47,402 nucleotides of DNA, taken from a virus (Duplodnaviria > Heunggongvirae > Uroviricota > Caudoviricetes). Position 1 is the stretch's first letter, and every line of letters begins with the position of its first letter. The position numbers and the translations under genes were made by a program. The stretch lies in IMG/VR virus record IMGVR_UViG_2531839180_000006. One strand, written 5' to 3'. The notes under the pieces are model-generated. The model searched no databases, was not told the DNA's origin, and worked only from the letters and a program-made list of their open reading frames with translations. Shown piece by piece: positions 9,110 to 40,918 of the stretch.

Positions 9110-9114
9110 GGGAT

Positions 9115-9813: not shown

Positions 9814-10142
9814 CAGTTCACCACCTGTTCAAACTCTGCGCTGAACTCAACACGCAGCATACTGACCCGCGACGACCATTTTGCGCAGGTCACCTTTATC
9901 TGCCGCCACTCATAAGGCGGCGTCCACAGAAAGGCTTTCCAGCCCCCGTGCTCAGCCAGAAACGACTCCAGCGCCGTGGCCTCCCAACGGGGAACAGAAA
10001 GCGTCACGCTGTACGTTTTCAGGTCGGCATTCAGCCCGGCAGGCGCTCGCTGGGAATAGCCATCACCAAAGCGCACTTTCCTGACGGAAGGGGCCGAAGC
10101 CACATCCATACCGGGTTTCACTTTCCAGCGGAAGGTCTTCAT
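9813..10142 (-). CDS. M: Minor tail protein M
   Basis: 109 aa, lambda M-like; synteny between H and L. Confidence 0.9.
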   Translation of the reverse strand: MKTFRWKVKPGMDVASAPSVRKVRFGDGYSQRAPAGLNADLKTYSVTLSVPRWEATALESFLAEHGGWKAFLWTPPYEWRQIKVTCAKWSSRVSMLRVEFSAEFEQVVN

Positions 10143-12712
10143 CGTCCACCTCCGGAGAACAGACCACCATCGCGCATCTGTGCCTGAATTTCATCACGGG
10201 CACCCTTGCGGGCCATGTCATACACTGCCTTCATCATCTGTGGACCTGGCAGACCATTCGTACCGTCGTTCTGAATCACCACGTGATTGTTCTGATTAAA
10301 ATTAATGCCTTCAGCCCGCCGCATCTGCGCCGGACTTCCGGCACCGCCCACATAACCACCTTCCGCATAGCCCCGCATCAGGCGGTACAGGTTGCCGACA
10401 CCAATTCGGCTGGTTGCCTCCTTCGTGAAGACAAATTCACCACGGTGAACAATCCCCGCTGGCTCATATTTGCCGCCGGTTCCCGTAAATCCTCCGGTTG
10501 CAAAATGGAATTTCGCCGCAGCGGCCTGAATGGCTGTACCGCCTGATGCGGATGCGCCGCCACCAACAGCCCCGCCAATGGCGCTACCGATACTCCCGAC
10601 AATCCCCACCATTGCCTGCTTAAGCAGAATTTCTGTCATCATGGACAGCACGGAACGGGTGAAGCTGCGCCAGTTCTGCTCACTGCCGGTCAGCATCGCC
10701 GCCATATTCTGTGCAATACCGTCAAAGGTCTGCGTGGCCACGCTTTTAACCTGCGAAAAACTGTCCGTCGCACTTTCCGCCCACTCGCCCCAGCCGGACT
10801 TCATCCCGGCCATCCAGCTTCCACGAAGCTGCTCCTCCGCAGACCAGGTGTTCTTCAGTGCAGATGTGGCCTTCGCCAGCGCAGCCGGATTATCACCGTA
10901 CACCTCACGAAGGCGCTGCTCTTCCGACTCCCGCTGCGCCTGACGGTCGGTGAGTCCGCGGGCTTTTGCGCTGATTGCCGCCTGCTTCGCGCTCTGCTGC
11001 TGTTCAAACCGCGCCGCCTGCTGTGCCAGCTCATTCAGCCGTTTCTGGTGTTCAATCTTGTCGCCCAGCTCAGCCAGCTGGCGTTTGTACTCCAGCGTCT
11101 CTTTCTCATGAGCCAGCAGGGATTTTTCCTGCTCAGATAACTGCCGTTTCGTGGCGGCCTCTTTCAGGACCACATACTGATTTTCCGCTTTCCATAAATC
11201 ACGGCGCTGCTGGCTGATTTTTTCATTCGCACCGCTGTGCTTCTCCAGCGTCCTGAGCTCAGTTTCAAGCGCCAGCAGGGCTGCATGCGCCTGGTCTTCC
11301 TGGCGCTCACCGGCAGACACCTTCACACCGGACGGCTTTTTCTGCGTCGACTCATAATCCTTTTTTGCCGACGCCATCAGCGTGTTGTAATCCGCCTGCA
11401 GGATTTTCCCGTCTTTCAGGGCCTTATTCAGCTCTTCCTGCCGGGCGGTATATTTCTCCAGTGGCGTCAGCAGGCGCTCATACGCCTTCTGCGCCTCTCC
11501 GGTATACTTCAGCTGTGACGACTCACGCTCAGCCCTGTCCCTTGCCGCCAGTTCACCGGCTTTTTCCATATCCGACTGCAGCGTTGCCGCTGCCAGACCC
11601 AGACGGGCATTTTCCCGGTCATCCCATGCTCCCTGAAGGTTGGCCCGGAAAGAGGAGGTTTTACCGCGGCGCTGGCTCCGACTCTGGTACCACTGCCATT
11701 TTTTATCCGCCTCATCAAATGCCTTCTGCGCACTGGCGAGCATATCCGCAGAAGATTCCGGACGACCGATATCCAGGATGGCATCCCACATCGATTTGAA
11801 CGCCTTCCCTGTTTTATCCGCCCAGGTCTCCAGCGTCCCCATGTTTTCTTTCAGGCGACGGGTCTGCTCATCAAAGCCTTTCGTGGCAATATCGTTCGCC
11901 GCCTGCAATGCCCCGGCCTCATCACCGGAACGCTGTAACTGTGCAACATACGCAATCTGCTCTGCCGTCACGTTATGGAACTGCTTCGCCATCGCAATCA
12001 GCCCCGACGTCGGGTCAGTGGTCAGTTTTCCGAAAGCCTCTGCAACCTTGTCCACCTCCACGCCGGATGCAGAAGCAAAACGCGCGACACTCTGGTTGAT
12101 GGCATCAAACTGTTCACCACCACGCACACCGGCATTCACCATGGCTGCCAGTGACTCACTCGCCTGGTTAAACGTCAGCCCTGCGGCCTGTCCGGCTCTG
12201 GAGAGCGTCAGCATGCGATCGGCAGTCAGTCCGGACTGATTACCGGAAAGAACCAGGGTTTTATTAAACGCAGAAAGCGTGGAATCCCCCTGGTACCAGG
12301 CGTACGCTAGCGCACCTGTCGCCACCGCCAGCGAGGTGACCCCGACCATCGGCAGGGTGATCGCACCGGCAAGCCCCCTGAACATGGGGATCATCCCGCC
12401 GAAGGAGTCCTTCACCTGACCGCCCTGTTGCAGCAGGATCAGCCAGGGATTCTGACCACCGGCAAGCTGCGTGGCCACGTCGGTGAACTGCATGGGTAGC
12501 GTACGCATGGCCTGTTTATACTGCCCGACGGAAATCCCGGCTTTTTGTGCAGCCAGCGCCTGGCGGCTCAGCCCCTGCTCAACGACAGTTGCGGTTTTTC
12601 TGGCGTCAGTATCCAGACCTGAAAAATGACGCCTTACCCGGCTCATCTGCTCATCGAAACGGACCGCATCCAGACTCAGGTCAATAACAAGATCACCAAC
12701 CGGCTGGGACAT
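10139..12712 (-). CDS. H: Tail tape measure protein H
   Basis: 857 aa coiled-coil-rich protein with lambda H-like N- and C-termini ('...MRDGGLFSGGGR'). Confidence 0.95.
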   Translation of the reverse strand: MSQPVGDLVIDLSLDAVRFDEQMSRVRRHFSGLDTDARKTATVVEQGLSRQALAAQKAGISVGQYKQAMRTLPMQFTDVATQLAGGQNPWLILLQQGGQVKDSFGGMIPMFRGLAGAITLPMVGVTSLAVATGALAYAWYQGDSTLSAFNKTLVLSGNQSGLTADRMLTLSRAGQAAGLTFNQASESLAAMVNAGVRGGEQFDAINQSVARFASASGVEVDKVAEAFGKLTTDPTSGLIAMAKQFHNVTAEQIAYVAQLQRSGDEAGALQAANDIATKGFDEQTRRLKENMGTLETWADKTGKAFKSMWDAILDIGRPESSADMLASAQKAFDEADKKWQWYQSRSQRRGKTSSFRANLQGAWDDRENARLGLAAATLQSDMEKAGELAARDRAERESSQLKYTGEAQKAYERLLTPLEKYTARQEELNKALKDGKILQADYNTLMASAKKDYESTQKKPSGVKVSAGERQEDQAHAALLALETELRTLEKHSGANEKISQQRRDLWKAENQYVVLKEAATKRQLSEQEKSLLAHEKETLEYKRQLAELGDKIEHQKRLNELAQQAARFEQQQSAKQAAISAKARGLTDRQAQRESEEQRLREVYGDNPAALAKATSALKNTWSAEEQLRGSWMAGMKSGWGEWAESATDSFSQVKSVATQTFDGIAQNMAAMLTGSEQNWRSFTRSVLSMMTEILLKQAMVGIVGSIGSAIGGAVGGGASASGGTAIQAAAAKFHFATGGFTGTGGKYEPAGIVHRGEFVFTKEATSRIGVGNLYRLMRGYAEGGYVGGAGSPAQMRRAEGINFNQNNHVVIQNDGTNGLPGPQMMKAVYDMARKGARDEIQAQMRDGGLFSGGGR

Positions 12713-13157
12713 ATCTCACACCTCCCGGAATCCCCGCTGAAGCCATCATTAATGCGGCATCATCCACCATGACATCCGCCACATCCGCAGACGATAAAAT
12801 ATCGCCCCCTCCGTCCCCACCGAACCGGACGCCTCCGGCAAGTCCTGCCGCTTTCTGCATCAGCATTTTGTCCTCATCCAGCCTCTCCACCTGCTCTTCC
12901 TCATGCCGGGGGACAAGCAGACTGAAATCAGAGGGATGCATATCCGGATCGCAAAAAAACAGGCTGAGTACAGCGTACGTCAGCCCGGAAAAATGCATAT
13001 CCAGCTGGGTATCCTGAAAATAATGCGTGCGGTAAAAATGGTGCCAGTCGGCATATTCGGTGGATGTCATCCCGGCAAGCATGGCGCGCCAGTCGGGTCT
13101 CCCCATCTCACGCGCCAGTCTGAGGGCAAAGTTCAGCTCGCCGTCGAAGACTTTCCC
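12693..13157 (-). CDS. T: Tail assembly chaperone T, expressed as G-T fusion by -1 programmed ribosomal frameshift
   Basis: -1 frame ORF continuing from the slippery site in G; lambda GT synteny. Confidence 0.85.
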   Translation of the reverse strand, partial: GKVFDGELNFALRLAREMGRPDWRAMLAGMTSTEYADWHHFYRTHYFQDTQLDMHFSGLTYAVLSLFFCDPDMHPSDFSLLVPRHEEEQVERLDEDKMLMQKAAGLAGGVRFGGDGGGDILSSADVADVMVDDAALMMASAGIPGGVRYVPAGW

Positions 13158-13564
13158 GCAGAAAAATCATCATCAGTCAGCGTGTTATTTTTCGCCACTT
13201 CAGTAATATCAGTATCCGGACGAACAGCTTCGATCATCCCGGACAGGCACAACACCACGTCTTCCGCCCGGGCAATGGCATCGGCAGGCCAGGTGGTGAG
13301 CACTTCCTGCTCTATCTTCATCACGGCCTCATTCATTGACGGTGACTGCGTTTTCTGTGGATGGTTATGCCACAGGGACATCGCCACCAGAAACGCGCCG
13401 GTTCTGACAAGATCTTCCACACTCACCTGCAGGTTGCCGCTGGCTTCAGCCTCTTCTGCCCGCCGTTTCAGGAGGGCAAGATGCTCAATACGCTGCAGCG
13501 CAGACAGCTCAGAAAGCGTGACGGATACACCGTTATATTCAAATTGTTCTGTTTTCAGGAACAT
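13133..13564 (-). CDS. G: Tail assembly chaperone G
   Basis: 143 aa beginning 'MFLKTEQFEYNGVSVTLSELSALQRIEHLAL', lambda G-like. Confidence 0.9.
   Translation of the reverse strand: MFLKTEQFEYNGVSVTLSELSALQRIEHLALLKRRAEEAEASGNLQVSVEDLVRTGAFLVAMSLWHNHPQKTQSPSMNEAVMKIEQEVLTTWPADAIARAEDVVLCLSGMIEAVRPDTDITEVAKNNTLTDDDFSAGKSSTAS
13151..13157 (-). promoter_or_regulatory. Slippery heptamer G_GGA_AAG for G-T -1 programmed frameshift
   Basis: Minus strand reads ...GCG GGA AAG TCT... in G frame; -1 shift continues in-frame into the T ORF. Confidence 0.85.
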
Positions 13565-13582
13565 CGCTTATCTCTCAGCTCT

Positions 13583-14329
13583 TTAGCCACCCGGCACATT
13601 ATTAACGGTAATTTCAGCCACCGCAGCAAACTGACCATTACCGGAAATCACAGGGATGCTGACTTTTCCATCCTTAACCCCCGTCACAGTAATCGTCATA
13701 TCTTTCACGCTAATGGTGGCTTTTGATGGATCGGCGGAAATCGCCCTGAATGTCTTATCCGTTGCATTTTCCGGTTCCACAGTAACGGTCAGGGTGGTTG
13801 TTTTCCCTTTTTCAACCGTACCTGTCGGCGTTACCTTAATCGCAGTGACCGGCGTAATTTTGCTGCGTTCTTCCGCTACAGAAGGTTTACCCACGTTAGT
13901 GACTTTCACCGTGCGGGTGATCACTTCTTTCGCCGTCACGGCCTTACCGATACTGCTGACCCAGCCACGAAACACATCCACCGTGCCATTCGGAAAACGG
14001 ATTTTATAGGCCCGGACATCGCCGCTTTCAAACCAGCCTATAAGCCCTTTCTGACCTTCCTCTCCCGGTTTCCAGGCCAGAGTAAAACTGGTATCACCTG
14101 CAGATTTCTGCCCCTGCCCGGTCGCGGTCCAGTCTGCGTCTTCATCATCCAGGTAGTTATCATCGTAGGATTCTGCCGTCATCTCGCCCGGCGTCAGATC
14201 CTTCACCTTAGCCAGTCGCTGCCAGTCAGCGTCTGACAACGGGTTTGCATAAGCATCACCCTTGCCGTTGTAAACCCACAGAGTGGTACCGGCACCTTTT
14301 ACTGGCTCCAGGGGATTTGGTGTTGCCAT
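13583..14329 (-). CDS. V: Major tail protein V (tube protein with C-terminal Ig-like domain)
   Basis: 248 aa, lambda V-like; synteny. Confidence 0.95.
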
Positions 14330-14336
14330 ATCGTCC

Positions 14337-14732
14337 TCACATCTCGTATGTAATGGAATAAGTCAGATCCGCAGAGCTCCATAACGCCATATCGTCATCA
14401 CGACGATACTCATAGCCCTGCGTAACCATCGTGGTAATCAGTCCTGCCAGTGCCGGGATCGCAGTCATCGCCGGATAAATCCGGCTTTCCATCCACTGAT
14501 CAAGCTCTGAATCCGGTACCTGTGCCGGTAAAAACACCTCAATATGCAGTGTGGCCCGCCAGGTATCTGCATCCAGCTCTTCACCGGTATACTCTGCATC
14601 CGTCAGATAAACCGCGATCGCAGGAAAATCCTCTTCGTCAAAAACAACGGGGCGACCATCAAACAGCGTCGCCCCGTGTTCATGCTGCTCGAGTGCATCC
14701 AGCACTGCAGCACGGATATCAGTGTGTTTCAT
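14337..14732 (-). CDS. U: Tail terminator protein U
   Basis: 131 aa, lambda U-like; synteny. Confidence 0.95.
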
Positions 14733-15304
14733 CGTTTTATCGCAATCCTCAGTTGTTGTTTCAGCGCGGATGCCAGTTCTCCGGGCAGGCGTTCACGCCG
14801 GATACGGTCAACATTCTCATCAAATGCCTGTTTCAGTGGGGTCGCCATCGGGATTTTCACCACCTGAATGGGAAGGCGATTACGCTTTTTCCTTCCCTTG
14901 TCGTCATTGCCCTCCTCATATCTGGCCTGGGGAAGACGTTGCATAACATGCCAGCGCCCATTATTTAATCGCTGGATAAATGCCCGCTGATAACGATGCT
15001 GACCGGCTTTGAGTATGCTGTTCGGACGACGCCCCAGCATTCTGATCCCCAGCTTAATCACAGGGAGATCACCGCGGTTAACGATAATTCTGGCATTCGG
15101 ATTTCTGACCGTCGCCCGTTTCAGTCTGGACCGTTCCTTTACCAGTTTCCGTCTCACCCTGGTTTCCCGGGCAACCTGTGACGAAGACTGATTAATCGCC
15201 GTTGTGGCCACGCGGTTAATGGTCATTGCAGAAGCAGCCGGAATGGCGTTTTTACGAACCCGGCTCAGATTGTCAATCGCCTGATCAAGCCCTTTTATCG
15301 CCAT
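14729..15304 (-). CDS. Z: Tail completion protein Z
   Basis: 191 aa, lambda Z-like; synteny. Confidence 0.9.
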   Translation of the reverse strand: MAIKGLDQAIDNLSRVRKNAIPAASAMTINRVATTAINQSSSQVARETRVRRKLVKERSRLKRATVRNPNARIIVNRGDLPVIKLGIRMLGRRPNSILKAGQHRYQRAFIQRLNNGRWHVMQRLPQARYEEGNDDKGRKKRNRLPIQVVKIPMATPLKQAFDENVDRIRRERLPGELASALKQQLRIAIKR

Positions 15305-15318
15305 AATTCACCCTGCGT

Positions 15319-15672
15319 TTATCGTCGCCGGTTAACTGCGGGTGGTTGCCCACGGTTGAGCCAGAGATAACAGCTACCCCCGTCATCCGGAGAAACACGA
15401 TCCACCCAGAATGTCTCACCATTAATGGTCAGCGTGTCACCACGCCGCACGGCACGAACCGTATCCGTCCGCACAAATAATGACGGGCTGCTTCCTTCAA
15501 TACGGACCCCGCTACCGGCAAACCCCAGCGACTCCGGATCGTCAAAAACCCCCTGAACTTCGCTGCCACACTGTGCCCCCGAGGTGAACTGCGCACAGAG
15601 CCCCATCACTTCAACAATCGTTCTGTCCACCCCAGCAAGGGCAGCATCAAAGGAATTCTCAAAATCACGCAT
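15319..15672 (-). CDS. FII: Head-tail connector protein FII
   Basis: 117 aa; 'GSSPSLFVRTD...TFWVDRVSPDDGGSCYLWL' matches lambda FII. Confidence 0.95.
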   Translation of the reverse strand: MRDFENSFDAALAGVDRTIVEVMGLCAQFTSGAQCGSEVQGVFDDPESLGFAGSGVRIEGSSPSLFVRTDTVRAVRRGDTLTINGETFWVDRVSPDDGGSCYLWLNRGQPPAVNRRR

Positions 15673-16033
15673 AAACGGCCATTCCGCTCCTGACCATGTC
15701 TTTTGCCACTGAGGGGGGCATCAGAATTACTCTGCCAGCATCAACATGCTCAACAGGCTCACCTGTTTTATCGTCAACACCGCACAGGTAAAAACACTTC
15801 AGAAGCCTGATACGTTCCAGAATACCAACGTCATCCTCACCGGTGTGCCTGCATGCCTGCTCATGAACGGTATCATCAACATCTGCGATTTCATTTTCCG
15901 AGGCGCAAACCTCCTCTTCCCACTCTGCCACACGCTGTGCGATATCCGCAGCACTCCCCGACATATCCGCCTCGCGCCCCAGCAGACCAGCCAGTTCACG
16001 AAGACGTTTCTGATTTTCTTCTTTTGTTGCCAT
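15665..16033 (-). CDS. FI: DNA packaging protein FI (divergent)
   Basis: Position between E and FII; acidic ~120-aa protein; start MATKEEN with GGGAG SD. Confidence 0.7.
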   Translation of the reverse strand: MATKEENQKRLRELAGLLGREADMSGSAADIAQRVAEWEEEVCASENEIADVDDTVHEQACRHTGEDDVGILERIRLLKCFYLCGVDDKTGEPVEHVDAGRVILMPPSVAKDMVRSGMAVYA

Positions 16034-16058
16034 ATCCAGCTCCCTGTGAAAAAAACAC

Positions 16059-16075
16059 GGGGGCATTTCGCCCCC
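16059..16075 (-). terminator. Hairpin (GGGGGC-loop-GCCCCC) + U7 run between E and FI on minus strand; terminator/attenuator-like
   Basis: Perfect 6-bp GC stem with 7-nt T-run immediately 3' on minus strand. Confidence 0.45.
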
Positions 16076-16084
16076 GCTCACGGA

Positions 16085-17113
16085 TTATTTCACCTGTACC
16101 ACCACAAACTCATCCGGATCCGGCAGCACCATCAGCGGCGCGGACTGCGTCATGGTGAATTCACAGGACGGATCGCCCACGGTCAGCCAGTGTTTCGGGT
16201 AACGGGAAGAAGCCACCACTCCTTCAGACAACGCCTGTGCATCCTTAATGGCTCCATAGCAACGAATCCCCTCTGCTGCCGTATTCCCCAGCACCAGCGT
16301 GCCCTCCGGCAGATAACGTTTTTCGGTACCGTCCTCTGCCACATAAGACGTTTTCGCTACCACAATGGCCAGATCGCCGTAATACCCCTTGAAGGATACC
16401 ACTGCGCCCAGATCTTTCACTGCCGTTTCGAGTTGTGAATTTGAACCGCGACGGGTATCCAGTTTTTCGCGGAAAAGCTTAAAGCCATTCAGCAGACGCC
16501 AGACGGTACCGTCCATAATGGCAATATTCGCAAGACCACTGGCCTGATCACAGAAAAGGTCGATATCATATGTCGGGTCGAACGTGTCACGATCCTGTTT
16601 TGACCACTCCTTACCGCTACCTTGTATGATGTTATTCTTCGTCGATCGGCCAAAATCGACTTCAATTTTCTCGAACTGGTCTCCTTCCATCGTATATTTG
16701 CCATACAGCACGGCATTCACCGCCTGCATTTCTTCCACCTGCACAATAGCGTGCTCTTCCTGTTTGAGGTTATCAGTGATGATACGCAGACGACGGTAGG
16801 CCGGGTCGTTCAGCTGAGCCGGATCTTCACCGGGAAGGCGTTCAACCGCCTGCTGGTAATTAAATTCGTGTTTCGGCTTGACGTAGCCCGGACGTAACAC
16901 GCGGGTTTCACCCCCACGATGACGCAGCACTTTTCCTTCAACGACCGGGGAGACATAGGCCGCCACCGGCGTTTTTCCGGTAATTTTGTCCAGCATCACC
17001 TCTTCGGTGTGGAAATTCACCGTACGGCGGAAAAACAGTTCCAGAAACAGCGCACGAAATTTAACTTTTTGTTCGGTATAACCGAGTAACTGGCGGGTCG
17101 TAAACAATCCCAT
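16085..17113 (-). CDS. E: Major capsid protein E
   Basis: 342 aa, lambda E-like throughout; synteny. Confidence 0.95.
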   Translation of the reverse strand: MGLFTTRQLLGYTEQKVKFRALFLELFFRRTVNFHTEEVMLDKITGKTPVAAYVSPVVEGKVLRHRGGETRVLRPGYVKPKHEFNYQQAVERLPGEDPAQLNDPAYRRLRIITDNLKQEEHAIVQVEEMQAVNAVLYGKYTMEGDQFEKIEVDFGRSTKNNIIQGSGKEWSKQDRDTFDPTYDIDLFCDQASGLANIAIMDGTVWRLLNGFKLFREKLDTRRGSNSQLETAVKDLGAVVSFKGYYGDLAIVVAKTSYVAEDGTEKRYLPEGTLVLGNTAAEGIRCYGAIKDAQALSEGVVASSRYPKHWLTVGDPSCEFTMTQSAPLMVLPDPDEFVVVQVK

Positions 17114-17170
17114 AAATCAGTTCCTTTCATTCAGAAATCAGTCAGGCCACCATGGTGGCCTGATAACGTG

Positions 17171-17518
17171 TTACGGCAGAGCCGCGTGACTCAGGGCTGT
17201 GCCGGCAAAGGCATTTGCCTTTTTGTGTTCATCCACACTGTCAGGCCAGCGGATTGCCTCCGTCGCAAAGGTCCCCGACTTGTAATAGGTCAGCACCGTC
17301 TCTGTGCCTTCAAGCGGCAGTACCAGTATGCCAACCGCACTACCGGCTTTCTGTCCATCCCAGACCACCAGTTTCCCGGTGGCTTCATCCAGCATCAGGG
17401 GCGTCAGAGCCGGTGTTGCAGAAGAAATCCCGCTGCTGCCTGTGGCGGTATGAGCCGGATCATTACCAGCAAAAATACGTACTTCCGCACGCTGTTCAGT
17501 GATGGTTTTCGTCACCAT
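17171..17518 (-). CDS. D: Head decoration protein D
   Basis: 115 aa; 'DPAHTAT...TPLMLD...LVVWDG...VGIL...YKSGTF' matches lambda gpD. Confidence 0.95.
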   Translation of the reverse strand: MVTKTITEQRAEVRIFAGNDPAHTATGSSGISSATPALTPLMLDEATGKLVVWDGQKAGSAVGILVLPLEGTETVLTYYKSGTFATEAIRWPDSVDEHKKANAFAGTALSHAALP

Positions 17519-17554
17519 TTTGTTAAAACCTCATATTGATGGTCAGCACTGACT

Positions 17555-19060
17555 TCATGGCATGGCCATGAGCATTTTCACGTCCGCATCACCGTCTGCT
17601 GACGTCTGTGACACGCCACCCCGCACCGCTGCCGGTGAATGATTCGCCATGAAATGTTCAAACAGGGCGGTTGTGGATGCAGAGACCGGTTCGGCCTTAC
17701 CTGATCCCGCAGCCAGCACAGCCCGGGCGTTCTCCACGGTCATTCCCGGGCAGGCCGCCAGTTTTTCAGCCTGCGCTTCTGCCCCTTTTGCCTCATCCAG
17801 GGCCATGATCTGATCACGAAGTGAGGGCCCGGCATCCGCCAGTGGTGCAGCCGCCAGGATCGGGCGTGCTTTTTCCACCGTCATCTCCGGCATCGCCGCC
17901 AGCGTTGCCGCCAGTTGTTCACGACCTTTCGCTTCTTCACACGCCATAATGCGATCGGCTTCACTCTGCGCGGATGCCACCGGCTGCTGCGGTGCCGCCG
18001 CGGCCAGAATCGCCCGGGCCTGTTCAACGCTCATGCCCTGTTGTCCTGCCAGCATCGTGGCAAGCTGTTCACGTCCTTTCGCTTCCTGGCATGTCAGGAT
18101 CCCCATCACTCGCTGGTTCTCCTGCGCGGCGGCTTCCGTTGCAGTTAATTGCGGCATAGTGCCTCCTCTGACATTACTGTTCAGCGCCGTGGCCATCACA
18201 CTGATGGCATCCGACGCATTGATTAATTCATCCGCCAGCCCGGCCTCAATGCCGGACTGACCTTCAAAAACGGCGGCCTCTGTTCCCGTGACTGCATCAA
18301 CAGACAACCCGGTATACATCGCCACTTTTTCGGCAAACATCCGGCGCGCCGCATCAATCCGCTGCTGCATGTCCTGGCGAACCTCTGCCGGCAACGCTTC
18401 AAACTGATTGCCATCCACCTTGTGCGCCCCGGCATAAATCAGCGTGATATCCACCCCGGCCTGCGCCAGATGACCGGCATAGCTGACATGGCTCATCATC
18501 ACGCCAATGGAGCCGATACGGGATGTCTGGGTAACCAGCCGTCGGGAGCAGGCCGACGCCAGCAGCATGGCCGCAGAACAGGCCGTGTCATTACACAGTG
18601 CCCAGACCGGCTTCTGCTGCCGGAGGCGGTAAATCATGTCAGCGCAGTCAAACGCGCCGGCGGCCTGCCCGCCCGGACTGTCAATGTCCAGCAGTATGCC
18701 CCGCACCTGGCTATCTGCCATTGCCTGCTGAAGACAGGCGACAATGCCGTCATAGCCAGTCATTCCGGAAAATGGCCGCATCCCCCCCAGCCGGTGCACC
18801 AGCGTGCCGGTCACCGGCAGTACCGCAATACCGTTCACCACCCGGTAAACACGGGCCGGTCGTTTACCTCCGGCCATGTACTCGTCCGTTTCAGCCAGCA
18901 TCCCGGGAGCATCAAGCTGTACCTGCTGTTGCGGTACCGAAAGACTTGCTGCCCCCATCTCGCGCCCCAGCGCGCAAAAGAAAACCCGCGCATAGGCGGG
19001 CTCCAGAAGCAGCGGTTCATTGAATGCTGCTGCAATAATGTGTGAAAGATTACGTCTCAC
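17555..19060 (-). CDS. C: Prohead protease / minor capsid protein C (S49 family), with scaffold (Nu3-like) region nested in its 3' part
   Basis: 501 aa, lambda C-like N-terminal protease domain; C-terminal Ala-rich triplicated segment typical of Nu3 scaffold. Confidence 0.9.
   Translation of the reverse strand: MRRNLSHIIAAAFNEPLLLEPAYARVFFCALGREMGAASLSVPQQQVQLDAPGMLAETDEYMAGGKRPARVYRVVNGIAVLPVTGTLVHRLGGMRPFSGMTGYDGIVACLQQAMADSQVRGILLDIDSPGGQAAGAFDCADMIYRLRQQKPVWALCNDTACSAAMLLASACSRRLVTQTSRIGSIGVMMSHVSYAGHLAQAGVDITLIYAGAHKVDGNQFEALPAEVRQDMQQRIDAARRMFAEKVAMYTGLSVDAVTGTEAAVFEGQSGIEAGLADELINASDAISVMATALNSNVRGGTMPQLTATEAAAQENQRVMGILTCQEAKGREQLATMLAGQQGMSVEQARAILAAAAPQQPVASAQSEADRIMACEEAKGREQLAATLAAMPEMTVEKARPILAAAPLADAGPSLRDQIMALDEAKGAEAQAEKLAACPGMTVENARAVLAAGSGKAEPVSASTTALFEHFMANHSPAAVRGGVSQTSADGDADVKMLMAMP
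17690..18130. repeat. Three tandem ~147-150-bp repeats inside C/Nu3 coding region
   Basis: Repeated units 'ctgttcacg(a/t)cctttcgcttc...' on plus strand; protein repeats 'EAKGREQLA..LA.....V/SVE.AR.ILAAA'. Confidence 0.7.
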
Positions 19061-20642
19061 GTGGTGTTGTCTCCTCTTCCGGCCTGCGACTCTCCGCTAT
19101 CTGCTGCTGATACGCCTGCGCTATCCACACCGGACGTGAGAGTCCGGCTTTTTCCCGCTCTGCAGATTCCCTGACCTGCTGGCGGAAAATGTCCTGATAA
19201 TCCTCGCCCATCAGCGCCAGCTCTTTCTCATACGTGCTCAGTCCGGCCTCAATGCGCATCACTGATTCCTGAACCTCCTTGAGCCCGTCAATGGCCATTC
19301 TTCCGGCTCCAATCCACTCAGCCCGTGACCAGGCTGATCGCGCCTGATAAAAATCAAACCGTGCCCGTGGCGGACGAATAATCCCCCGAAGAAGTGCCTC
19401 TTCCAGCCAGCAGGAAAACATCTGCGTGGCCAGCCGGGACGCAATAAATTTTCGCCGCCCCATAAAATAGCGCCACGACTCATTGGCGGAGGCGCGGGCA
19501 CTTGAATAACTGACCTTCGAGTAATCACGGGACAACTGTTCGTAGGAAACGCCAAGACCGGCGGCGATATACCGCAGCAGCGCCTGTTCAAGCGCCGAAA
19601 ATCCATTGTCTGAATCCTGCGCGGTCTGAAGCTTCAGATCATCACCGGGGAAAAGGTGCGGAATTTTGACACCGCCCAGCGTCACGCTATTCGTGTCATA
19701 CCAGGTGGAGAACTTATCCAGAATATTAATAAGCGGATTATCCTTCTGCCCCTGCGGCGCACCGGCGATATATTCAAAGGCCTTTTCGGTATCAAGGTCA
19801 CTTTCAATCGTCGCTGCATACATCGCCTTCACTATGGCCGACTGAAGCTGTGTTGCCTGCAGGGAATCCAGCATCTTCAGCCGTTCCATAACGCTGTAAA
19901 ACTGATTGGCTCCACGGGTCTGTCCGTCCTCCACCGGCTCGAAAATATGCAGCATGGCCGGACGCCCGGTGGGTAGTTCACGCGGGATCCGTTCCCATCG
20001 TCCACTCCCGGAGCGAGGAAAATCATCCTCACAGATATGGTACGCAACGGCACGGCCATATCGATCAACCTCCACACCGGCCCGCAGAAAACGGTTCCCG
20101 ATACCGTGTCCTGGCGTGTCCACCCGTTTCGGACTCACGGCTTTAAAACGCGTACGAAACAGTTGCGTACTCTCCGTATCCCAGACCGGCTGCACAAAGA
20201 TTTCGCCGTTAAACGCATGAACGCCCACACCTTCACGGATAAATTCCGTAAACGTGCGTTTCCCTTCCACGTCGATCTCACCAAACATCCCTTCTGCGTA
20301 TTCTGACCAGGCCGCCTCCACCTCATCGACAAAACTTTTTGCCGCGGTCTCCCGCATCCCCAGCCAGCGCCAGTTCGGACGGTAGCTAATCAGAAACATA
20401 TGCCCGACAATGTGATCCTTATGCAGGGCCACCGCATTGGCCGCTATTCCGTTATTGCGCACCAGATCATCTGCACGGGCATTCCCCAGACGCAACGCGG
20501 GCAGCAGGGCCGCATCGGCACTCTGCGAGGGTGGCAACCACTCTGCCATTTGCCCGCCAAATCCTGCACCGCCCCCGTTGTAGCTGAGGCTCTCCCGAAG
20601 CGGAACGCCGTTCACATCAATCAGGATAGGCGTTCGTTTCAT
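19050..20642 (-). CDS. B: Portal protein B
   Basis: 530 aa, lambda B-like; synteny. Confidence 0.95.
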   Translation of the reverse strand: MKRTPILIDVNGVPLRESLSYNGGGAGFGGQMAEWLPPSQSADAALLPALRLGNARADDLVRNNGIAANAVALHKDHIVGHMFLISYRPNWRWLGMRETAAKSFVDEVEAAWSEYAEGMFGEIDVEGKRTFTEFIREGVGVHAFNGEIFVQPVWDTESTQLFRTRFKAVSPKRVDTPGHGIGNRFLRAGVEVDRYGRAVAYHICEDDFPRSGSGRWERIPRELPTGRPAMLHIFEPVEDGQTRGANQFYSVMERLKMLDSLQATQLQSAIVKAMYAATIESDLDTEKAFEYIAGAPQGQKDNPLINILDKFSTWYDTNSVTLGGVKIPHLFPGDDLKLQTAQDSDNGFSALEQALLRYIAAGLGVSYEQLSRDYSKVSYSSARASANESWRYFMGRRKFIASRLATQMFSCWLEEALLRGIIRPPRARFDFYQARSAWSRAEWIGAGRMAIDGLKEVQESVMRIEAGLSTYEKELALMGEDYQDIFRQQVRESAEREKAGLSRPVWIAQAYQQQIAESRRPEEETTPRET

Positions 20643-20845
20643 AACCTCACTCCCAGCGGACGACGGCGACGGCGGGTTGTCCCCAGTACCGACTCCGCAT
20701 CATTGATCGCCCGGTTAAGCTCATCCAGAGAAGCTGCCGTATATTCAATTCTGCGACCATCTTTCTGGACAGACACCACCCGTTTACCGGTTAATAAATC
20801 AAGGCGCGCCTGACGCAGCGCCTGCAGTTCAGCGACTGTAACCAT
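20639..20845 (-). CDS. W: Head-tail joining protein W
   Basis: 68 aa; 'LLTGKRVVSVQKDGRRIEYTAASLDEL' matches lambda W; strong SD GGAGGAG. Confidence 0.95.
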   Translation of the reverse strand: MVTVAELQALRQARLDLLTGKRVVSVQKDGRRIEYTAASLDELNRAINDAESVLGTTRRRRRPLGVRL

Positions 20846-22758
20846 TCACTCCTCCGGACAGCTTCGCTGCCAGTTCTTTAAGGGTTGGCCGGGTCGTCTC
20901 TTCTTCCCGGGATTTTGCCAGTACAGCCAGATCAAGCTGCCAGCGTTGCACGGACACACGTAATGCCGCGTAGGCATACACCAGGCAGTCCAGCGCTTCG
21001 TTACGCCGCTTTTTGTTATCCCACAGCAGACGCATCTTTCCTTTTTCCCACTTCTCCACAAGCTCTTCCGCCACCAGTTGCTGCGCCTCTGTCTGCGAAA
21101 AAATCTCCGGATCATCAGGAAAACGGATGGCATACGACGTGGCTTCATCCGCAGGCGTGGGATCGGCTTTCATACGGGCATAGAGAATTTCTTTTGCGGT
21201 GTCCGTCCCCACTTCGCACAGATACACGCCCCGCTGATTGCGGGTTTTTGGCATGGTGATCACCGGCTTGCCATAAACAGATGCACCTTTTACCGGCAGC
21301 ACCCGGAAAACACCGTGTTTTTTTGACCTCTGATAGACAATTTCGCCATCGATCCCCCCGGTGTCCCAGCAGACACGGGAAATGGTCATTTCGGTTCCGT
21401 CTGCATGGCGGTATTTTTTGTTGATCGCCACATCCACACGTAACAGCGTCTCTTCCTCATCGGGACGCCCCATAATGATGATTTTATCCACCAGAAAGGC
21501 TTCCTCTCCCGGAGCCCATCCCCAGACATACATCTCAAAACGATTTCGCTGCGAGTCAATGCCCGCCGTCAGATAAACCACCCGGGAAGGCACCGCAGCC
21601 GTGTAACGCACAACCTTATCCATCAGCACCTGGTGATCGAGTTTTTCGCCCACGGCCTCTTCCCAGGTCTCGCCCAGCGTGGTGTTCACAAAGGTTTTCA
21701 GGCCGTTGGGATCTTTCAGTGCATCCAGCCAGTCATAGACAATCTGTACCCAGGTGGTGAACGGACTGTACGCCGTCCAGATATGGAATGTGATGGAGCG
21801 CGGCGGCGGAATTTCATTATCCGCGGCGCTGAAAAACGTCAGACCGTCGCGGGTCCACATCCCCGTGTTTTCGCAGATCCACCGCCCGTTGCTCTGGTCA
21901 AGCTCAGACTGATGGATCACGCAGCCATGATGTTCACAGAGGTAGAAAACGCTTTCGGGGCTGTCCTTCTCCCATTTTAAGGCCAAAAGGCGTGGACTCA
22001 TCGCCAAATTTCAGATACTGCGCCTCCCCACAGTGCGGGCAGGGCACATAAAAACGCATGAAATGCGCCGACTCGTTGGCCGCTTTTTCGATCTGGCAGG
22101 AGCCTTTTATTTTAGGCGTCGAGCCGCGAATGGATTTTGGCCATACCGAGCCCTCAATACGCTTATCCCCCAGCAGGGTTGGCGAGCCCTCTTTTTCGAC
22201 ATCCGGCTCGAACGAGGAAAGTTCGTCATAGCAGACCACGTCCACGGATTTTTCACGGTAGTTTTTTGCTGCCGCACCACCCAGGCACCAGAAGCCCACC
22301 CCCGATGAAAAGCGTTTCAGCGTGAGAGTATTGTCACGATGTTTACGACCCAGCCACGGGGAAAGATCTTTCAGGCATGGCACGTCCCGAATCGTCGCCT
22401 CCACGTGAGACTTCATAAAATCTTCAGCGGCAGAATCCGTGGGCTGAAAAAGCATACTGTTTCGGGATTTATGCTCAATAAAATACCCGGCGACTCCCAG
22501 CAACATCTTTGTATAGCCAACACGGGCAGATTTAATCAGATTAACAGTGCGGATCTGATCATTCCCCATACTGTTCATGATGGCGATCTGGAACGGCAGC
22601 GTTTTCCATTCGCCGTCACCGTATGAGGATTCTTTCGGCAGATAATAATACTGGTCAGCCCATTCAACTGCCGTCATCGGTACAACCCTGACCAGAGGCT
22701 GCAGCGCAACCGAAACGGCGGCCACCATATTATTCAGTTGTTGCTCTAATATATTCAT
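20829..22758 (-). pseudogene. A: Terminase large subunit A, interrupted by a +1 frameshift in an A-run (minus-strand AAAA; plus-strand TTTT at 21975-21978)
   Basis: Two overlapping ORFs (21934..22815 and 20829..22007) together align to lambda gpA; frames switch at '...TPFGLK|W...' where an extra A is present. Confidence 0.85.
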
Positions 22759-23236
22759 CCAGCAAATCCGGTAATTTATCCCCTGCCCGCGCACACTGAT
22801 TTGCGCCCTTTGCAATAAGGGTTTTCAGATGGTCAATATGACGTGGCGTTAAATCCGGGAACTGTCGCTGCATGGATAACGGAATGGAATCAAGCGTACT
22901 GGACAATGCCATCGCCAGTTTGCTGAGGGCGAAAACGCAGAAGTCTGAATCGATGAGCTTACCTTCGGTTACCTGATTTTTAAGTTTTTGAGCTACAGCC
23001 TGTTCTTCTGTCAGTTCAGCTCTGGCCCGAAGCAGCCTTTCCTCCAGTTCTCCCCCGTCATCAGGTGTTCTCTGATTGTGTTGTCGCCGCTCGCGATCTA
23101 TCTCCAGTACAGTTTTAACGTCATATAAAACTTCCCTCCCCCGACGTTCAACAGGAGGAACGCCCCATTTATCAAATGCCTGAACAGAGATACCGATGGA
23201 GGAGGCCATATCACTTTTATTCAATAAAAAGGCCAT
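22730..23236 (-). CDS. nu1: Terminase small subunit Nu1
   Basis: N-terminal wHTH region and 'FCVFALSKLA...LDSIPLSMQRQFPDL' match lambda Nu1; GGAGAGGAG SD; immediately downstream of cos. Confidence 0.9.
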   Translation of the reverse strand: MAFLLNKSDMASSIGISVQAFDKWGVPPVERRGREVLYDVKTVLEIDRERRQHNQRTPDDGGELEERLLRARAELTEEQAVAQKLKNQVTEGKLIDSDFCVFALSKLAMALSSTLDSIPLSMQRQFPDLTPRHIDHLKTLIAKGANQCARAGDKLPDLLDEYIRATTE

Positions 23237-23439
23237 CTCCTCTCCATAAGTCATCGATAAAAAGCGAAACAACAACCATGTGTTTTTGCAAAACCATTTG
23301 ATATCATTGACATTTTTCGCATTGGCGACATCAAAACACATCGTAAGGTTGTTGTATTTATTTTATTTTCACCTTACTTATCAATTAGATATACCAAACA
23401 ATTAAACAACAACTACCCCCTCAAAAAATCTCATAAATA

Positions 23440-27314: not shown

Positions 27315-27650
27315 ATGAAGTGGATTGTGATTGATACAGTTATCCAGCCATCATGCGGAATATCTTTTTCAGTCATATGGAGTAAAATAAAATTAATAAT
27401 CTGGTATCAATCGGATGCTTTCTTACCTCCTGAAAGTATATTTACACTGACTCACACAGGCATCATGCTCAATAACAAAGTGCTACCTGTAACCATTTAC
27501 AACGTAGTACCATTCAATAAAACATTCTGGAATTTAATCAAAAACAGCCAGGAATGCCCTACAAATACAGATAACGTATTGAATGAATGCTTTAATAACC
27601 GTTGCACTCTGCAAATATGTCCTTATGGACTAAAACAACAAAGTCCATAA
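27315..27650 (+). CDS. Hypothetical AT-rich cargo protein (111 aa, Cys-rich C-terminus), anti-sense to the late operon
   Basis: ORF with SD AAGGAAAG 6 nt before ATG; preceded by ~245-bp very AT-rich region; no recognisable family. Confidence 0.5.
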
Positions 27651-28238: not shown

Positions 28239-29288
28239 TCAAACGATTAAATCCTGAACTTCCCTGACTGTCTGCTCAAAACGTCCGGTCTCCAGCTCAA
28301 CACCAATCGCACGACGCCCCAGTGCCATCGCCGCTTTTACCGTTGAACCCGACCCCATGAAAAAATCCGCAACCAGATCACCAGGACGACTACTTGCGCT
28401 GATTATCTGCTGCAGCATTTCTGCCGGTTTTTCGCACGGATGTTTCCCTGGATAGTGCTGCACCGGTTTATGCGTCCAGACATCGGTGTACGGAACCTGC
28501 GCCGTCACACCGAAATACCGCCGCAAATTTTTATATTCACTCAGCAGTTCCGTATACTGCCGGTTCAGCTCACTGTATGTGCTGACCAGCTGGTGGTGTG
28601 GCTTTTCCAGTTCCCCGCGCTGATGTTTTTCTGCCGCAACACGCGCAAACAACGCCTGCAATTTGTTGTAATCACCCTCGTTCGGTAACTGCCACTGACT
28701 GGTACCAAACCAGTGCGAAGCCATGTTTTTCTTTCCGGTGGCTTCCGCTATCTGTTTTGACGTTATTCCCAGTGATTTACGCGCATCACGAAAGTAAGAA
28801 ATCAGCGGGGCCATGACGTGCTGTTTTAGCTCGCGCCCCTGCTCCACATAGCCATCATCTTTCGGGCGATACGGTCCCTGATAATGTTCTGCAAACAGAA
28901 TGCGCTCTGTTGCCGGAAAATACGCCCGCAGACTTTCCTTATTGCACCCGTTCCAGCGTCCGGACGGCTTCGCCCAGATAATGTGGTTCAGCACATTAAA
29001 GCGCTCACGCATCATGATTTCGGTGTCAGATGCCAGGCGATGACCACAGAACAGGTAAAGACTTCCGGCAGGCTTCAGTACCCGCCAGAACTGCGCCAGA
29101 CACTGGTCCAGCCATTTCAGGTAATCATCGTCGCCCTCCCACTGGTTATCCCAGCTCTCGGGCTTCACTTTAAAGTATGGCGGGTCTGTGACTATCAGAT
29201 CGACAGAATTTTCCGGTAAGGTCTGGATAAATTCCAGGCAATCAGCGTTGATTAACTCACAACTGGATATTTTTACAGTATTGGCCAT
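28239..29288 (-). CDS. Orphan DNA methyltransferase (N6-adenine/N4-cytosine amino-MTase; DPPY motif IV followed by FxGxG motif I)
   Basis: 'LIVTDPPYF' near N-terminus and 'DFFMGSGST' near C-terminus; no adjacent restriction endonuclease candidate. Confidence 0.85.
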   Translation of the reverse strand: MANTVKISSCELINADCLEFIQTLPENSVDLIVTDPPYFKVKPESWDNQWEGDDDYLKWLDQCLAQFWRVLKPAGSLYLFCGHRLASDTEIMMRERFNVLNHIIWAKPSGRWNGCNKESLRAYFPATERILFAEHYQGPYRPKDDGYVEQGRELKQHVMAPLISYFRDARKSLGITSKQIAEATGKKNMASHWFGTSQWQLPNEGDYNKLQALFARVAAEKHQRGELEKPHHQLVSTYSELNRQYTELLSEYKNLRRYFGVTAQVPYTDVWTHKPVQHYPGKHPCEKPAEMLQQIISASSRPGDLVADFFMGSGSTVKAAMALGRRAIGVELETGRFEQTVREVQDLIV

Positions 29289-29855: not shown

Positions 29856-30599
29856 CTAATCTGACGTCACACGCACCATTATACTTACTAAAGAAAAGTC
29901 ATCATCAGGTCCGGCTCTCTCTATACGACGCAAAATGCCATTAGAAAACTTCTGACTATTACTCATCGTATTTGATGTAAATCTGGGGCGTTTTTCCCAA
30001 ACGTTATGAACCCCATCAGACATGATACACAGATGATATACCCCGTTAATACTAGGTAAATCTTTCCATGTGATAAAATCACAGTCGTATTCCATATCAA
30101 CATTTGAGGCTATAGCCGTCGTTAAGATATTTTTGCCCGGTTTATCCTTCAAATCTCTGGGTTTAAAAATATTCTGATCAATTAGCATCTGATGCCTGGT
30201 ATCGTCCTTCGTCAATTGGTATGCTTTCTTCTCTCCAATGCAATACAAACGACAATCACCAATATGACCAATAATAATTCCGCTATCACAAACATAACAA
30301 AACGTAAGTGTAGTAGCAGCTTTATCGAACTCATCATTAACATCAGCTAACGACATAACCTTTCGCTTAACTTCATCAAATACATCCGGAACTGTGTCAA
30401 AAGATAAGCTTGTCAATGCTGAAAGCTCAGCAATTGCCATTGATGAAGCCTGACTGGCACCAGTGTATGAACCTACACCATCAGCTACGGCAAATAAGAT
30501 GCCATCCCCTACAATTTTGGGAGGAAGCAATGAATCTTCGTTGACCCTACCTGGTTCTTTTGGATACGAGAATGATGAAGTCGCTATCAGCTGAATCAT
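29856..30599 (-). CDS. PP2C-family (PPM) Ser/Thr protein phosphatase
   Basis: PPM motifs 'NEDS', 'FAVADGVGS', 'GDCRLY', 'MSDGV', 'DDDFS'; start overlaps kinase stop (ATGA); AT-rich. Confidence 0.8.
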   Translation of the reverse strand: MIQLIATSSFSYPKEPGRVNEDSLLPPKIVGDGILFAVADGVGSYTGASQASSMAIAELSALTSLSFDTVPDVFDEVKRKVMSLADVNDEFDKAATTLTFCYVCDSGIIIGHIGDCRLYCIGEKKAYQLTKDDTRHQMLIDQNIFKPRDLKDKPGKNILTTAIASNVDMEYDCDFITWKDLPSINGVYHLCIMSDGVHNVWEKRPRFTSNTMSNSQKFSNGILRRIERAGPDDDFSLVSIMVRVTSD

Positions 30600-31361
30600 G
30601 ACTCACTCCTTAAAAAAGAATGCACAAAATCAAACGCCACATCATCTATTGTCTGATATCTATCATCTTTATCCATCCTGGTACACTTCGCTATGATAGG
30701 CTTTATTTTTTTATCATCTAAATTTAAGTCCTCAATTAACCGCCCCACCGCATAAACATCAGTCTTAACTGAATACTCGGCATTATATAAAATCTCGGGA
30801 GCCATATATCTTGTACTTCCCATACGGGTACCGATCTCGGTCAATTTAGTGGTATCCCCTTCGGGATTTGTATCTTTTACCAGACCAAAATCAGACACCT
30901 TGTATGTTCCGTCGCTAAATCGCAAGACATTAAATGGTTTTATATCTCTGTGTAAATAGCCTTTCGCATGGATGTGAGCTACACCATCTAATACCATTTT
31001 CACTATTGAAATTTTTTGATCTGTTGTAAGAAGGTTGTTCGTTATTTCGTGCTCAAGATCACATTCTGCTTTATCCATAATGAACCATGGATTCTCGGCA
31101 AACAAATCGCACAAATAAATAGGAACAATATTGCTATGTACGCAATGTGATTGATACACGACCTCCCTTTTAAAACGCCTTCTAAACTGCTCTATTTGCG
31201 CCAAAAGCTCTGGTTTTTCGGGGGCTAAAACCTTTCTAGCATAATCCCCACATTCACCCTTGTTGAGGTTGTAAACCTTAACGTGTTCAACAAAGCCAAA
31301 TGCACCTCTTCCAATCAACTGAATTCGTTTTATAAAGTAATTACCGTGCTGTTCTTCCATT
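30596..31361 (-). CDS. Eukaryotic-like (Hanks-type) Ser/Thr protein kinase
   Basis: Gly-loop 'GRGAFGFV', 'YARKVL' lysine, catalytic loop 'HRDIKPFN', 'DFG', 'MAPE'; AT-rich; start MEEQHG chosen. Confidence 0.85.
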
Positions 31362-33615: not shown

Positions 33616-33616
33616 G

Positions 33617-33895
33617 TTACCTCCAGATCCGTTGCTGGAATGTGCGGGACGGACGCGGTGGGCGTTCGGAATAAGGGAGTCTGACGGAAATTATCCAGTG
33701 TCGGAAGTCAGAACTGAGGTCTTTCTGAAACTCGTAACCACGTCTGCGGTAGTTCTGAATCAGCCACTCGGCCTGTTCTTCGGTGCAGGGGTCGTGCTGA
33801 TACCAGTCAGATTTGAATGTGTGAGGATACCGCTCGTGCGTACAGGCAAGAACGGTCGAATTATTATGATTGTAATATTTTGCGTTGCGTGCCAT
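33617..33895 (-). CDS. Hypothetical nin-region protein (92 aa)
   Basis: ORF with GGAGAAAA SD; stop adjacent to start of downstream gene. Confidence 0.5.
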   Translation of the reverse strand: MARNAKYYNHNNSTVLACTHERYPHTFKSDWYQHDPCTEEQAEWLIQNYRRRGYEFQKDLSSDFRHWIISVRLPYSERPPRPSRTFQQRIWR

Positions 33896-40917: not shown

Positions 40918-40918
40918 T

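What the first reader, a model, noticed from the sequence alone, without database searches (positions are those of the whole stretch)
21960..21990. Frameshift in the terminase large subunit gene A at a homopolymer run
The gpA homolog is split into two overlapping frames. On the minus strand the junction reads CCTTTTGGCCTTAAAATGGGAGAAG, where one extra A relative to the frame-preserving 'FGLKWEKD' reading (matching lambda 'FGLKW') shifts the frame (plus-strand TTTT at 21975..21978). Lambda A has no programmed frameshift, so this is either a homopolymer sequencing/assembly error or a genuine inactivating mutation in an otherwise intact prophage.
Basis: seen in the sequence. Interest (0 to 1): 0.5.

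Follow-up and report, generated by a model that had tools for sequence, protein, structure and literature searches.

The report
One-base frameshift splitting prophage terminase gene
One extra A in a short run of A's splits the DNA-packaging (terminase large subunit) gene of an otherwise intact lambda-like prophage; it occurs only in this one 2010 draft assembly, so it is most likely a sequencing error and otherwise a very recent knock-out mutation, which is ordinary either way.

Summary
On the minus strand the gpA-type terminase gene (20829-22758) is split at CTT-AAAA-TGG (plus-strand TTTT, 21975-21978). This gives a 274-aa ATPase fragment and a nuclease fragment of about 390 aa. Deleting one A restores a 642-aa protein that is 91% identical to phage 21 gp2 and 66% identical to lambda gpA; both read FGLKW at this point.

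The window is E. coli TW10509 (clade I ETEC, GCA_000190995.1, scaffold GL872204.1). The AAAA allele is found nowhere else: 0 of 2111 homologous places in 5426 complete E. coli genomes, and 0 hits in the genome, viral and metagenome collections. The AAA allele is abundant.

Independent assemblies carry the same prophage. One is identical over 21.9 kb, and the extra A is the only difference. A same-lineage genome (GCA_001912235.1), with the prophage at the same ompW site, has AAA. The exact repaired protein occurs on 44 contigs; each fragment occurs on one.

The shift is not programmed: the site is not conserved and has no stimulator.

- Assembly or base-calling artefact: about 0.65.
- Genuine, very recent inactivating +1 insertion: about 0.32.

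Only reads or PCR across the site can decide. Interest is low.

The parts
21975..21978 (-). Homopolymer run AAAA (plus-strand TTTT). One base more than the AAA found in every relative; this is the frameshift site, after codon K261.
21934..22758 (-). N-terminal gpA fragment. 274 aa: 261 native residues plus 13 out-of-frame residues (MGEGQPRKRFLPL), ending at TGA 21934-21936. Contains most of the GpA_ATPase domain.
   Evidence: (PF05876, residues 49-253, profile positions 5-210 of 247).
20829..21974 (-). C-terminal part of gpA in the +1 frame, from W262 (TGG 21972-21974) to the stop. Carries the GpA_nuclease domain. The open frame extends upstream to ATG 22001 / TTG 22007; GenBank annotates it from ATG 22001 as a 390-aa protein, EGB72222.1.
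   Evidence: (PF20454).
20829..22758 (-). Whole terminase large-subunit gene (phage 21 gene 2 / lambda A type). It is 642 codons once one A is removed.
   Evidence: The exact repaired protein occurs on 44 contigs in public data (P0046).
22730..23341 (-). Terminase small subunit (Nu1 type), intact. Called as 203 aa here and as 168 aa (later start) in RefSeq relatives. Overlaps the start of gpA as in lambda.
20639..20845 (-). gpW head-tail joining protein, intact. Overlaps the 3' end of gpA.
19050..20642 (-). Portal protein (lambda B type), intact. The exact sequence is shared with many assemblies.

Best explanation
The extra A is most likely not in the bacterium's DNA. It looks like a homopolymer over-call (AAA read as AAAA), or a consensus error, in the 2010 draft assembly of E. 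coli TW10509. The real gene would then be an ordinary intact 642-aa phage-21/lambda-type terminase large subunit (ATPase plus cos-cutting nuclease) in a recently acquired, apparently complete lambdoid prophage integrated in ompW. Shown: the site, the restored ORF, the uniqueness of the allele, and the identity of the rest of the prophage to sister copies. Inferred: that the difference arose in sequencing rather than in the cell.
For: (1) The source is GCA_000190995.1, scaffold GL872204.1. Both fragment proteins occur on that one contig only, among about 15 billion proteins.

(2) The exact repaired 642-aa protein is on 44 contigs from NCBI, Logan and ENA.

(3) None of 1390 records (2111 places) in 5426 complete E. 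coli genomes has AAAA in the 71-mer around the site. The AAAA 24-mer has 0 hits in genome contigs, viral contigs and metagenome contigs.

(4) Sister copies of the same prophage:
- L033 (GCA_045009595.1): 21,930 aligned columns, 0 mismatches; the only difference is this base.
- L015: 8.6 kb, 0 mismatches, same single gap.
- L034 (a Logan SRA assembly): 14.4 kb, 1 mismatch plus the gap.
- Window 1-17737 against four other assemblies: at most 1 mismatch each, and no gaps.

(5) GCA_001912235.1 has the same chromosomal background: 2 differences in 8.6 kb of flank, against 263 mismatches over the 21 kb locus (nearly all in the 10 kb chromosomal flank) for other hosts of this prophage. It has the prophage at the same ompW site and reads AAA.

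(6) TW10509 has no private substitution in about 46.6 kb of prophage. Its only private change there is a homopolymer indel, which is the error type of pyrosequencing. Each sister assembly's private changes, in contrast, are substitutions.

(7) Both halves of the gene show no secondary decay.

(8) From memory, not documented here: the Broad Institute's 2010 E. coli drafts were 454/Newbler assemblies.
Against: - No read data are available.
- The sequencing platform could not be documented; the PNAS paper is not held.
- The assembly is otherwise clean: there is no other gene-breaking indel in the 47 kb window or in 10 kb of chromosomal flank.
- gpA itself has 17 runs of 5-7 nt (A7, G6, A6) that are all correct. 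Pyrosequencing consensus errors favour long runs, not a 3-mer.
- Spontaneous +1 slippage in short runs does occur, and a lysogen has no selection to keep terminase.
- TW10509 has at least one private substitution in the flank, so its lineage is not identical to its sister.
Confidence: 0.65

Rival explanations
1. The +1 insertion is genuine and very recent, in the TW10509 lineage or in its laboratory stock. Replication slippage turned AAA into AAAA after codon K261. The ATPase domain is truncated: the CPHC half of a Cys/His cluster is separated from its CEHHGC half. The nuclease and portal-binding part is left untranslated. After induction the prophage could still excise, replicate and lyse the cell. 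It could not cut cos or package DNA, so it would yield no infective particles unless a co-resident lambdoid phage with a compatible terminase helped it.
For: The base is present in the deposited sequence. The assembly shows no other coding indel in about 57 kb. The many longer homopolymers are all correct. TW10509 has at least one private substitution nearby, so some real divergence from its sister exists. From established knowledge, prophage morphogenesis genes are commonly inactivated by small frameshifts because nothing maintains them in the lysogen.
Against: The allele is a singleton among thousands of homologous copies. The prophage has 0 private substitutions in about 46.6 kb, so the time available for a real indel was very short. 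In E. coli mutation-accumulation data (from memory) indels are roughly ten times rarer than substitutions. The same-lineage genome has AAA. Losing terminase gives the host no selective benefit, because lysis genes remain intact.
Confidence: 0.32
2. Programmed recoding: the ribosome shifts +1 at CUU-AAA-A, with tRNA-Lys re-pairing from AAA to the overlapping AAA. This would make full-length gpA at a set ratio alongside a short ATPase-only product.
For: Perfect re-pairing of the P-site tRNA-Lys is possible on the AAAA run, and the shifted product would be identical to wild-type gpA. Lambdoid phages do use a programmed shift elsewhere, at G/T; its GGGAAAG site is present at 13151-13157.
Against: The site is not conserved. 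Every relative examined has AAA and a single ORF, including copies of the same prophage identical at every other aligned base. The 0-frame A-site codon is the common AUG, not a stop or a rare codon. No Shine-Dalgarno-like stimulator lies upstream. A4 is too short for transcriptional slippage (established knowledge).
Confidence: 0.02

Closest known systems
Phage 21 gene 2 product (terminase large subunit; OL657228.1 CDS 709-2637, UMO75417.1)
   Same: The repaired protein is 91% identical over the full 642 aa, with the same length and the same C-terminus. The gene order Nu1-A-W-portal is the same, and the FGLKWEK motif sits at the shift site.
   Different: The window copy carries one extra A after K261 and is therefore split. 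The small-subunit gene upstream is not the phage 21 type: the nucleotide match to phage 21 starts only at position 287 of the 2201-nt query (window 22900-20700, minus strand), about 145 nt inside gpA and past the Nu1 gene.
Lambda gpA (NP_040581.1, 641 aa)
   Same: 66% identity. Same two-domain architecture: GpA_ATPase (PF05876) plus GpA_nuclease (PF20454). Same FGLKW and YLCEH motifs, and one uninterrupted ORF.
   Different: Lower identity than to phage 21. Lambda has no frameshift, programmed or otherwise, in A.
gpA pseudogene annotated 'frameshifted' in E. coli NCTC9112 (NZ_LR134079.1, EL053_RS10120)
   Same: An orthologous gene (97.9% nt identity over the aligned 5.8 kb) broken by a single-base difference in homopolymer length in one assembly only.
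   Different: A different site: T8 versus T7 at window-equivalent 21324. It reads AAA at the site studied here.
Lambda G/T tail-assembly-chaperone programmed -1 frameshift
   Same: A real, conserved translational frameshift in the same kind of phage. Its slippery heptamer GGGAAAG is present in this window at 13151-13157, minus strand.
   Different: It is conserved across relatives, shifts -1, and lies in a different gene. The gpA site has none of these properties.

Membership tests
Lambda/phage-21-type terminase large subunit (gpA) | N-terminal GpA_ATPase domain (PF05876) | tested here: met
   Repaired protein: residues 49-293, E=1e-54. N fragment: residues 49-253, E=1.8e-46, lacking profile positions 211-247.
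Lambda/phage-21-type terminase large subunit (gpA) | C-terminal GpA_nuclease domain (PF20454) | tested here: met
   Repaired protein: residues 323-601, E=4.7e-71. C fragment: E=1.3e-71.
Lambda/phage-21-type terminase large subunit (gpA) | Gene order Nu1 - A - W - portal, with overlapping gene ends | tested here: met
Lambda/phage-21-type terminase large subunit (gpA) | Both domains encoded in one continuous ORF of about 641-642 codons | tested here: not met
   As deposited, the gene is split at 21975-21978. It is met after removing one A. All relatives have a single ORF.
Programmed ribosomal frameshift site | Shift site conserved among homologues | tested here: not met
   The AAAA allele is absent from 2111 homologous places and from three public collections. 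The AAA allele is abundant.
Programmed ribosomal frameshift site | Stimulatory context for a +1 shift (slow or stop A-site codon, upstream SD-like element) | tested here: not met
   The context is CUU AAA AUG GGA. The A-site codon is AUG, and the 30 nt upstream have no GGAGG-like element. This was checked by sequence inspection only.
Homopolymer-length sequencing/assembly artefact | The difference is a single-base length change of a mononucleotide run | tested here: met
   AAA versus AAAA.
Homopolymer-length sequencing/assembly artefact | The allele is private to one assembly, while near-identical independent assemblies lack it | tested here: met
Homopolymer-length sequencing/assembly artefact | The assembly was produced on an indel-prone platform, and the reads disagree or are sparse at the site | not testable with these tools
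   No reads or assembly metadata are available. The describing paper is not held. That the platform was 454 rests on my memory only.
Genuine prophage pseudogene | The lesion is seen in independent sequence of the same strain or lineage | tested here: not met
   The only same-lineage assembly found, GCA_001912235.1, has AAA. Each fragment protein is on one contig only. The strain itself has not been re-sequenced in the data I can reach.

The most novel reading that the evidence does not exclude
The extra A is real and tolerated. Either low-level +1 slippage of tRNA-Lys on CUU-AAA-A supplies enough full-length terminase, or the separately made ATPase and nuclease fragments complement each other. 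The prophage would then remain packaging-competent with a down-tuned or split terminase.
Probability: 0.01. Interest if true: 0.45.

Novelty: not a real feature. Interest (0 to 1): 0.08.

Why it matters
It matters little biologically. Practically, annotation of TW10509 carries two spurious or pseudogene terminase fragments (EGB72222.1 and its partner). Prophage-completeness tools would count this element as defective, although it is otherwise complete and base-for-base the same as copies now present in chromosomally divergent E. coli. If the mutation is real, it is a snapshot of the very first step of prophage decay: a packaging-null lesion with no other change. That is a known phenomenon.

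Tried and rejected
- **Programmed frameshift:** rejected. The site is not conserved and has no stimulator.
- **Error-riddled assembly:** I looked for other indels against near-identical relatives over the whole window and 10 kb of flank. The only uncompensated coding indel is this one. Other single-base gaps are compensated pairs in divergent stretches or are intergenic (7784; 26594 A6/A7, which is shared with sister copies and so real; 40733 C3/C4). So there is no support for a generally poor assembly.
- **Documenting the sequencing platform:** the PNAS 2011 paper describing TW10509 is not held, by DOI or by PMC id. Other papers give only strain metadata: clade I, ETEC, human faeces, AEKA00000000. 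Further literature searches gave nothing relevant.
- **Identifying the strain behind GCA_001912235.1 / GCA_001912565.1:** no paper cites these accessions.
- **Exact look-up of the N fragment with the look-up of encoding contigs:** this found nothing, although the same sequence is in the protein table.
- **NCTC9112:** its assembly is also one base longer over this region, which might have meant a second AAAA case. Its frameshift is at a different run.

Full report
**1. Observation**

The minus strand at 21960-21990 reads CCTTTTGGCCTTAAAATGGGAGAAG, and the A4 run corresponds to plus-strand TTTT at 21975-21978. Two minus-strand ORFs overlap here: 21934..22815 and 20829..22007.

From the homologous start codon (ATG at 22758) the upstream frame gives 274 aa. 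It ends ...CPHCGEAQYLKFGDESTPFGLK, followed by 13 out-of-frame residues and TGA at 21934-21936. The +1 frame continues WEKDSPESVFYLCEHHGC... to the stop at 20829.

Pfam places GpA_ATPase on the first fragment and GpA_nuclease on the second. Removing one A gives one 642-aa ORF with GpA_ATPase at 49-293 and GpA_nuclease at 323-601. That protein is 91% identical to phage 21 gp2 and 66% identical to lambda gpA, and both read FGLKW at the junction.

The only correction is 642 aa rather than 640.

**2. Where the window comes from**

An exact-sequence look-up found the 390-aa C fragment as EGB72222.1, 'phage terminase large subunit [Escherichia coli TW10509]'. Both it and the 274-aa N fragment are seen on a single 3,516,811-bp contig.

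That contig is scaffold GL872204.1 of GCA_000190995.1, and it matches the window at 100%. The coordinate conversion is record = window + 2,281,712, so the run lies at 2303687-2303690.

TW10509 is a clade I enterotoxigenic isolate from human faeces, WGS accession AEKA00000000 (PMC7716201; PMC5706723). The assembly is scaffold-level and is not among the complete genomes searched.

**3. The prophage**

The window is essentially one lambdoid prophage integrated in ompW. The integrase ends at the last base of the window and abuts ompW. The left end abuts an ompW fragment followed by yciE/F and trpABC in sister copies.

All modules are present and open:
- int, xis, a RecE-like exonuclease, kilR, rha
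- a CI-like repressor and cro
- DnaT-like and P-like replication genes
- rusA, Q, holin, lysozyme, Rz
- Nu1, A, W, portal, protease, D, E, FI, FII, Z, U, V, G/T, H, M, L, K, I, J, lom, and a 609-611-aa side-tail-fibre-like ORF

The G/T slippery heptamer GGGAAAG is present. 'Otherwise intact' is therefore fair. The region distal to the tail fibre holds only tail-fibre-assembly fragments, in every copy of this prophage.

**4. How unusual the allele is**

- Over 2201 nt the best complete-genome match (STEC005) differs by two substitutions and this one base. Its gene is an intact 642-aa CDS.
- A 71-mer centred on the site matches 1390 records (2111 places) in 5426 complete E. coli genomes. None matches at 99% or better, and every listed hit spans 70 nt in its record, which implies AAA.
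- The AAAA 24-mer has no exact match in 185,579 species-representative genomes, in IMG/VR, or in the metagenome contigs.
- The exact repaired protein is on 44 contigs from NCBI, Logan and ENA.

**5. Sister copies of the same prophage**

| Comparison | Aligned region | Differences |
|---|---|---|
| L033 (GCA_045009595.1) | window 10829-32758, 21,930 columns | 0 mismatches, one gap (this base) |
| L015 (GCA_001912235.1) | 8.6 kb | 0 mismatches, the same gap |
| L034 (Logan assembly of SRR11280923) | 14.4 kb | 1 mismatch, the same gap |
| L037-L040 | window 1-17737 | at most one mismatch each, private to that assembly; no gap |
| L028/L031 | window 36272-47402 | 3 substitutions, no gap |

L028/L031 sit in a chromosome whose flank differs from TW10509 by about 2.6%. 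So the phage has spread very recently between divergent hosts, which requires a working terminase.

GCA_001912235.1 shares TW10509's chromosomal background, with 2 differences in 8.58 kb of flank. It has the prophage at the same site and reads AAA in gpA. Seven of its eight differences from TW10509 are private to it, and all seven are substitutions that extend an adjacent homopolymer, which looks like error. The eighth is a TW10509-private substitution in the tonB region.

Net result: in about 46.6 kb of prophage, TW10509 has no private substitution, and its single private change is the A3-to-A4 indel.

**6. Programmed frameshift?**

No. The site is not conserved (section 4). The 0-frame context CUU AAA AUG has a common A-site codon and no upstream Shine-Dalgarno-like element. 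A4 is too short for transcriptional slippage (established knowledge). tRNA-Lys could re-pair +1 on AAAA, so trace read-through is conceivable. Nothing suggests it has been selected for.

**7. Artefact or real?**

For artefact:
- The allele is a singleton.
- The change is of the homopolymer-indel type.
- The prophage has zero private substitutions.
- A same-lineage assembly has AAA.
- Neither half of the gene shows secondary decay.
- From my memory only, Broad E. coli drafts of 2010 were 454/Newbler assemblies, whose characteristic error is exactly this.

For a real mutation:
- The assembly is otherwise clean. There is no other gene-breaking indel in 47 kb of prophage or 10 kb of core flank.
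- Seventeen longer runs within gpA (up to A7 and G6) are all correct, whereas pyrosequencing consensus errors prefer long runs.
- A lysogen does not select for terminase.
- TW10509 does have at least one private substitution nearby.

A rough likelihood comparison gives about 2:1 in favour of artefact. It assumes real indels are about 0.1 times as frequent as substitutions, with 0-1 private substitutions seen in about 55 kb, against a plausible consensus indel error rate of about one per 20-100 kb for a 454 draft. I put artefact at 0.65, a real and very recent null mutation at 0.32, and anything else at or below 0.03.

**8. Consequence if real**

The break lies inside the C-terminal part of the ATPase domain, between CPHC (240-243) and CEHHGC (274-279). 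The N fragment lacks the end of that domain. The nuclease and C-terminal portal-binding region would not be translated, except from a weak internal ATG.

By analogy with lambda A mutants (established knowledge), the prophage could still be induced, replicate and lyse. It could not cut cos or fill proheads.

**9. Novelty**

None. This is either an annotation or assembly artefact, or a commonplace first-hit prophage pseudogene.

**10. What did not work**

The paper describing the genome is not held. No paper cites the sister assemblies. Several literature searches were uninformative.

Noticed in passing
whole window, with L028/L031/L033/L037-L040/L281: The same 47-kb ompW-integrated lambdoid prophage is found in more than a dozen independent assemblies. 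These copies show 0-3 substitutions per 10-20 kb. They include hosts whose adjacent chromosome differs from TW10509 by about 2.6%. This indicates very recent horizontal spread of an active phage.
   Followed up: partly
L281 and L015 (GCA_001912235.1, LRKI01000123.1) versus window 33547-47402 plus flank: Seven of the 8 differences from TW10509 are private to that assembly. All are substitutions that lengthen a neighbouring homopolymer (for example ACAACCCC to ACACCCCC, GGGGGCAC to GGGGGGAC). This pattern looks like platform error in that assembly rather than real divergence. The strain could be a clone-mate of TW10509; its name could not be found.
   Followed up: partly
L002 (NCTC9112) at window-equivalent 21324: The orthologous gpA in NCTC9112 is annotated 'frameshifted'. 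The cause is a different homopolymer, T8 versus T7. This is a second example of a single-assembly run-length difference breaking this gene.
   Followed up: partly
window 13151-13157 (-), genes 13133-13564 and 12693-13106: The canonical lambda G/T tail-assembly-chaperone slippery heptamer GGGAAAG is present near the end of the G homologue. This is the real programmed -1 frameshift of this phage type.
   Followed up: partly
window 29856-31360 (-): A Ser/Thr protein kinase (254 aa, Pkinase) and a PP2C-family phosphatase (247 aa) form a gene pair. It sits between the antiterminator Q and an N6/N4 DNA methyltransferase (28239-29288). It is a moron-like cargo cassette in the late-operon leader region.
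   Followed up: no
window 27315-27650 (+): An IraM/PmrD-family gene (111 aa) lies on the opposite strand, upstream of the lysis cassette. In the relative E275a, three tRNA genes and an IS2 lie nearby; both are absent here.
   Followed up: no
window 1-3626: The distal tail-fibre region contains a 609-611-aa ORF with a phage_tail_N domain. It is followed only by short tail-fibre-assembly (Caudo_TAP) fragments and an opposite-strand SAM-dependent methyltransferase (612-1280). RefSeq marks the equivalents in relatives as incomplete or frameshifted. Every sister copy shares this state, so it predates the gpA change.
   Followed up: partly
window 22730-23341 (-): The Nu1 small-terminase gene is called as 203 aa in TW10509 and some assemblies, but as 168 aa (later ATG) by RefSeq in relatives. 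The true start is ambiguous.
   Followed up: no
window 26594 and 40733: There are intergenic homopolymer-length differences against E. coli E275a: A6 versus A7, and C3 versus C4. The first is shared with sister copies L015 and L033, so it is real variation. The second was not checked against sister copies.
   Followed up: partly
L032 14724 (chromosomal flank, tonB region, about 3.6 kb right of the window end): TW10509 has a private G-to-A substitution here relative to all ten other genomes compared, including its same-lineage sister.
   Followed up: partly
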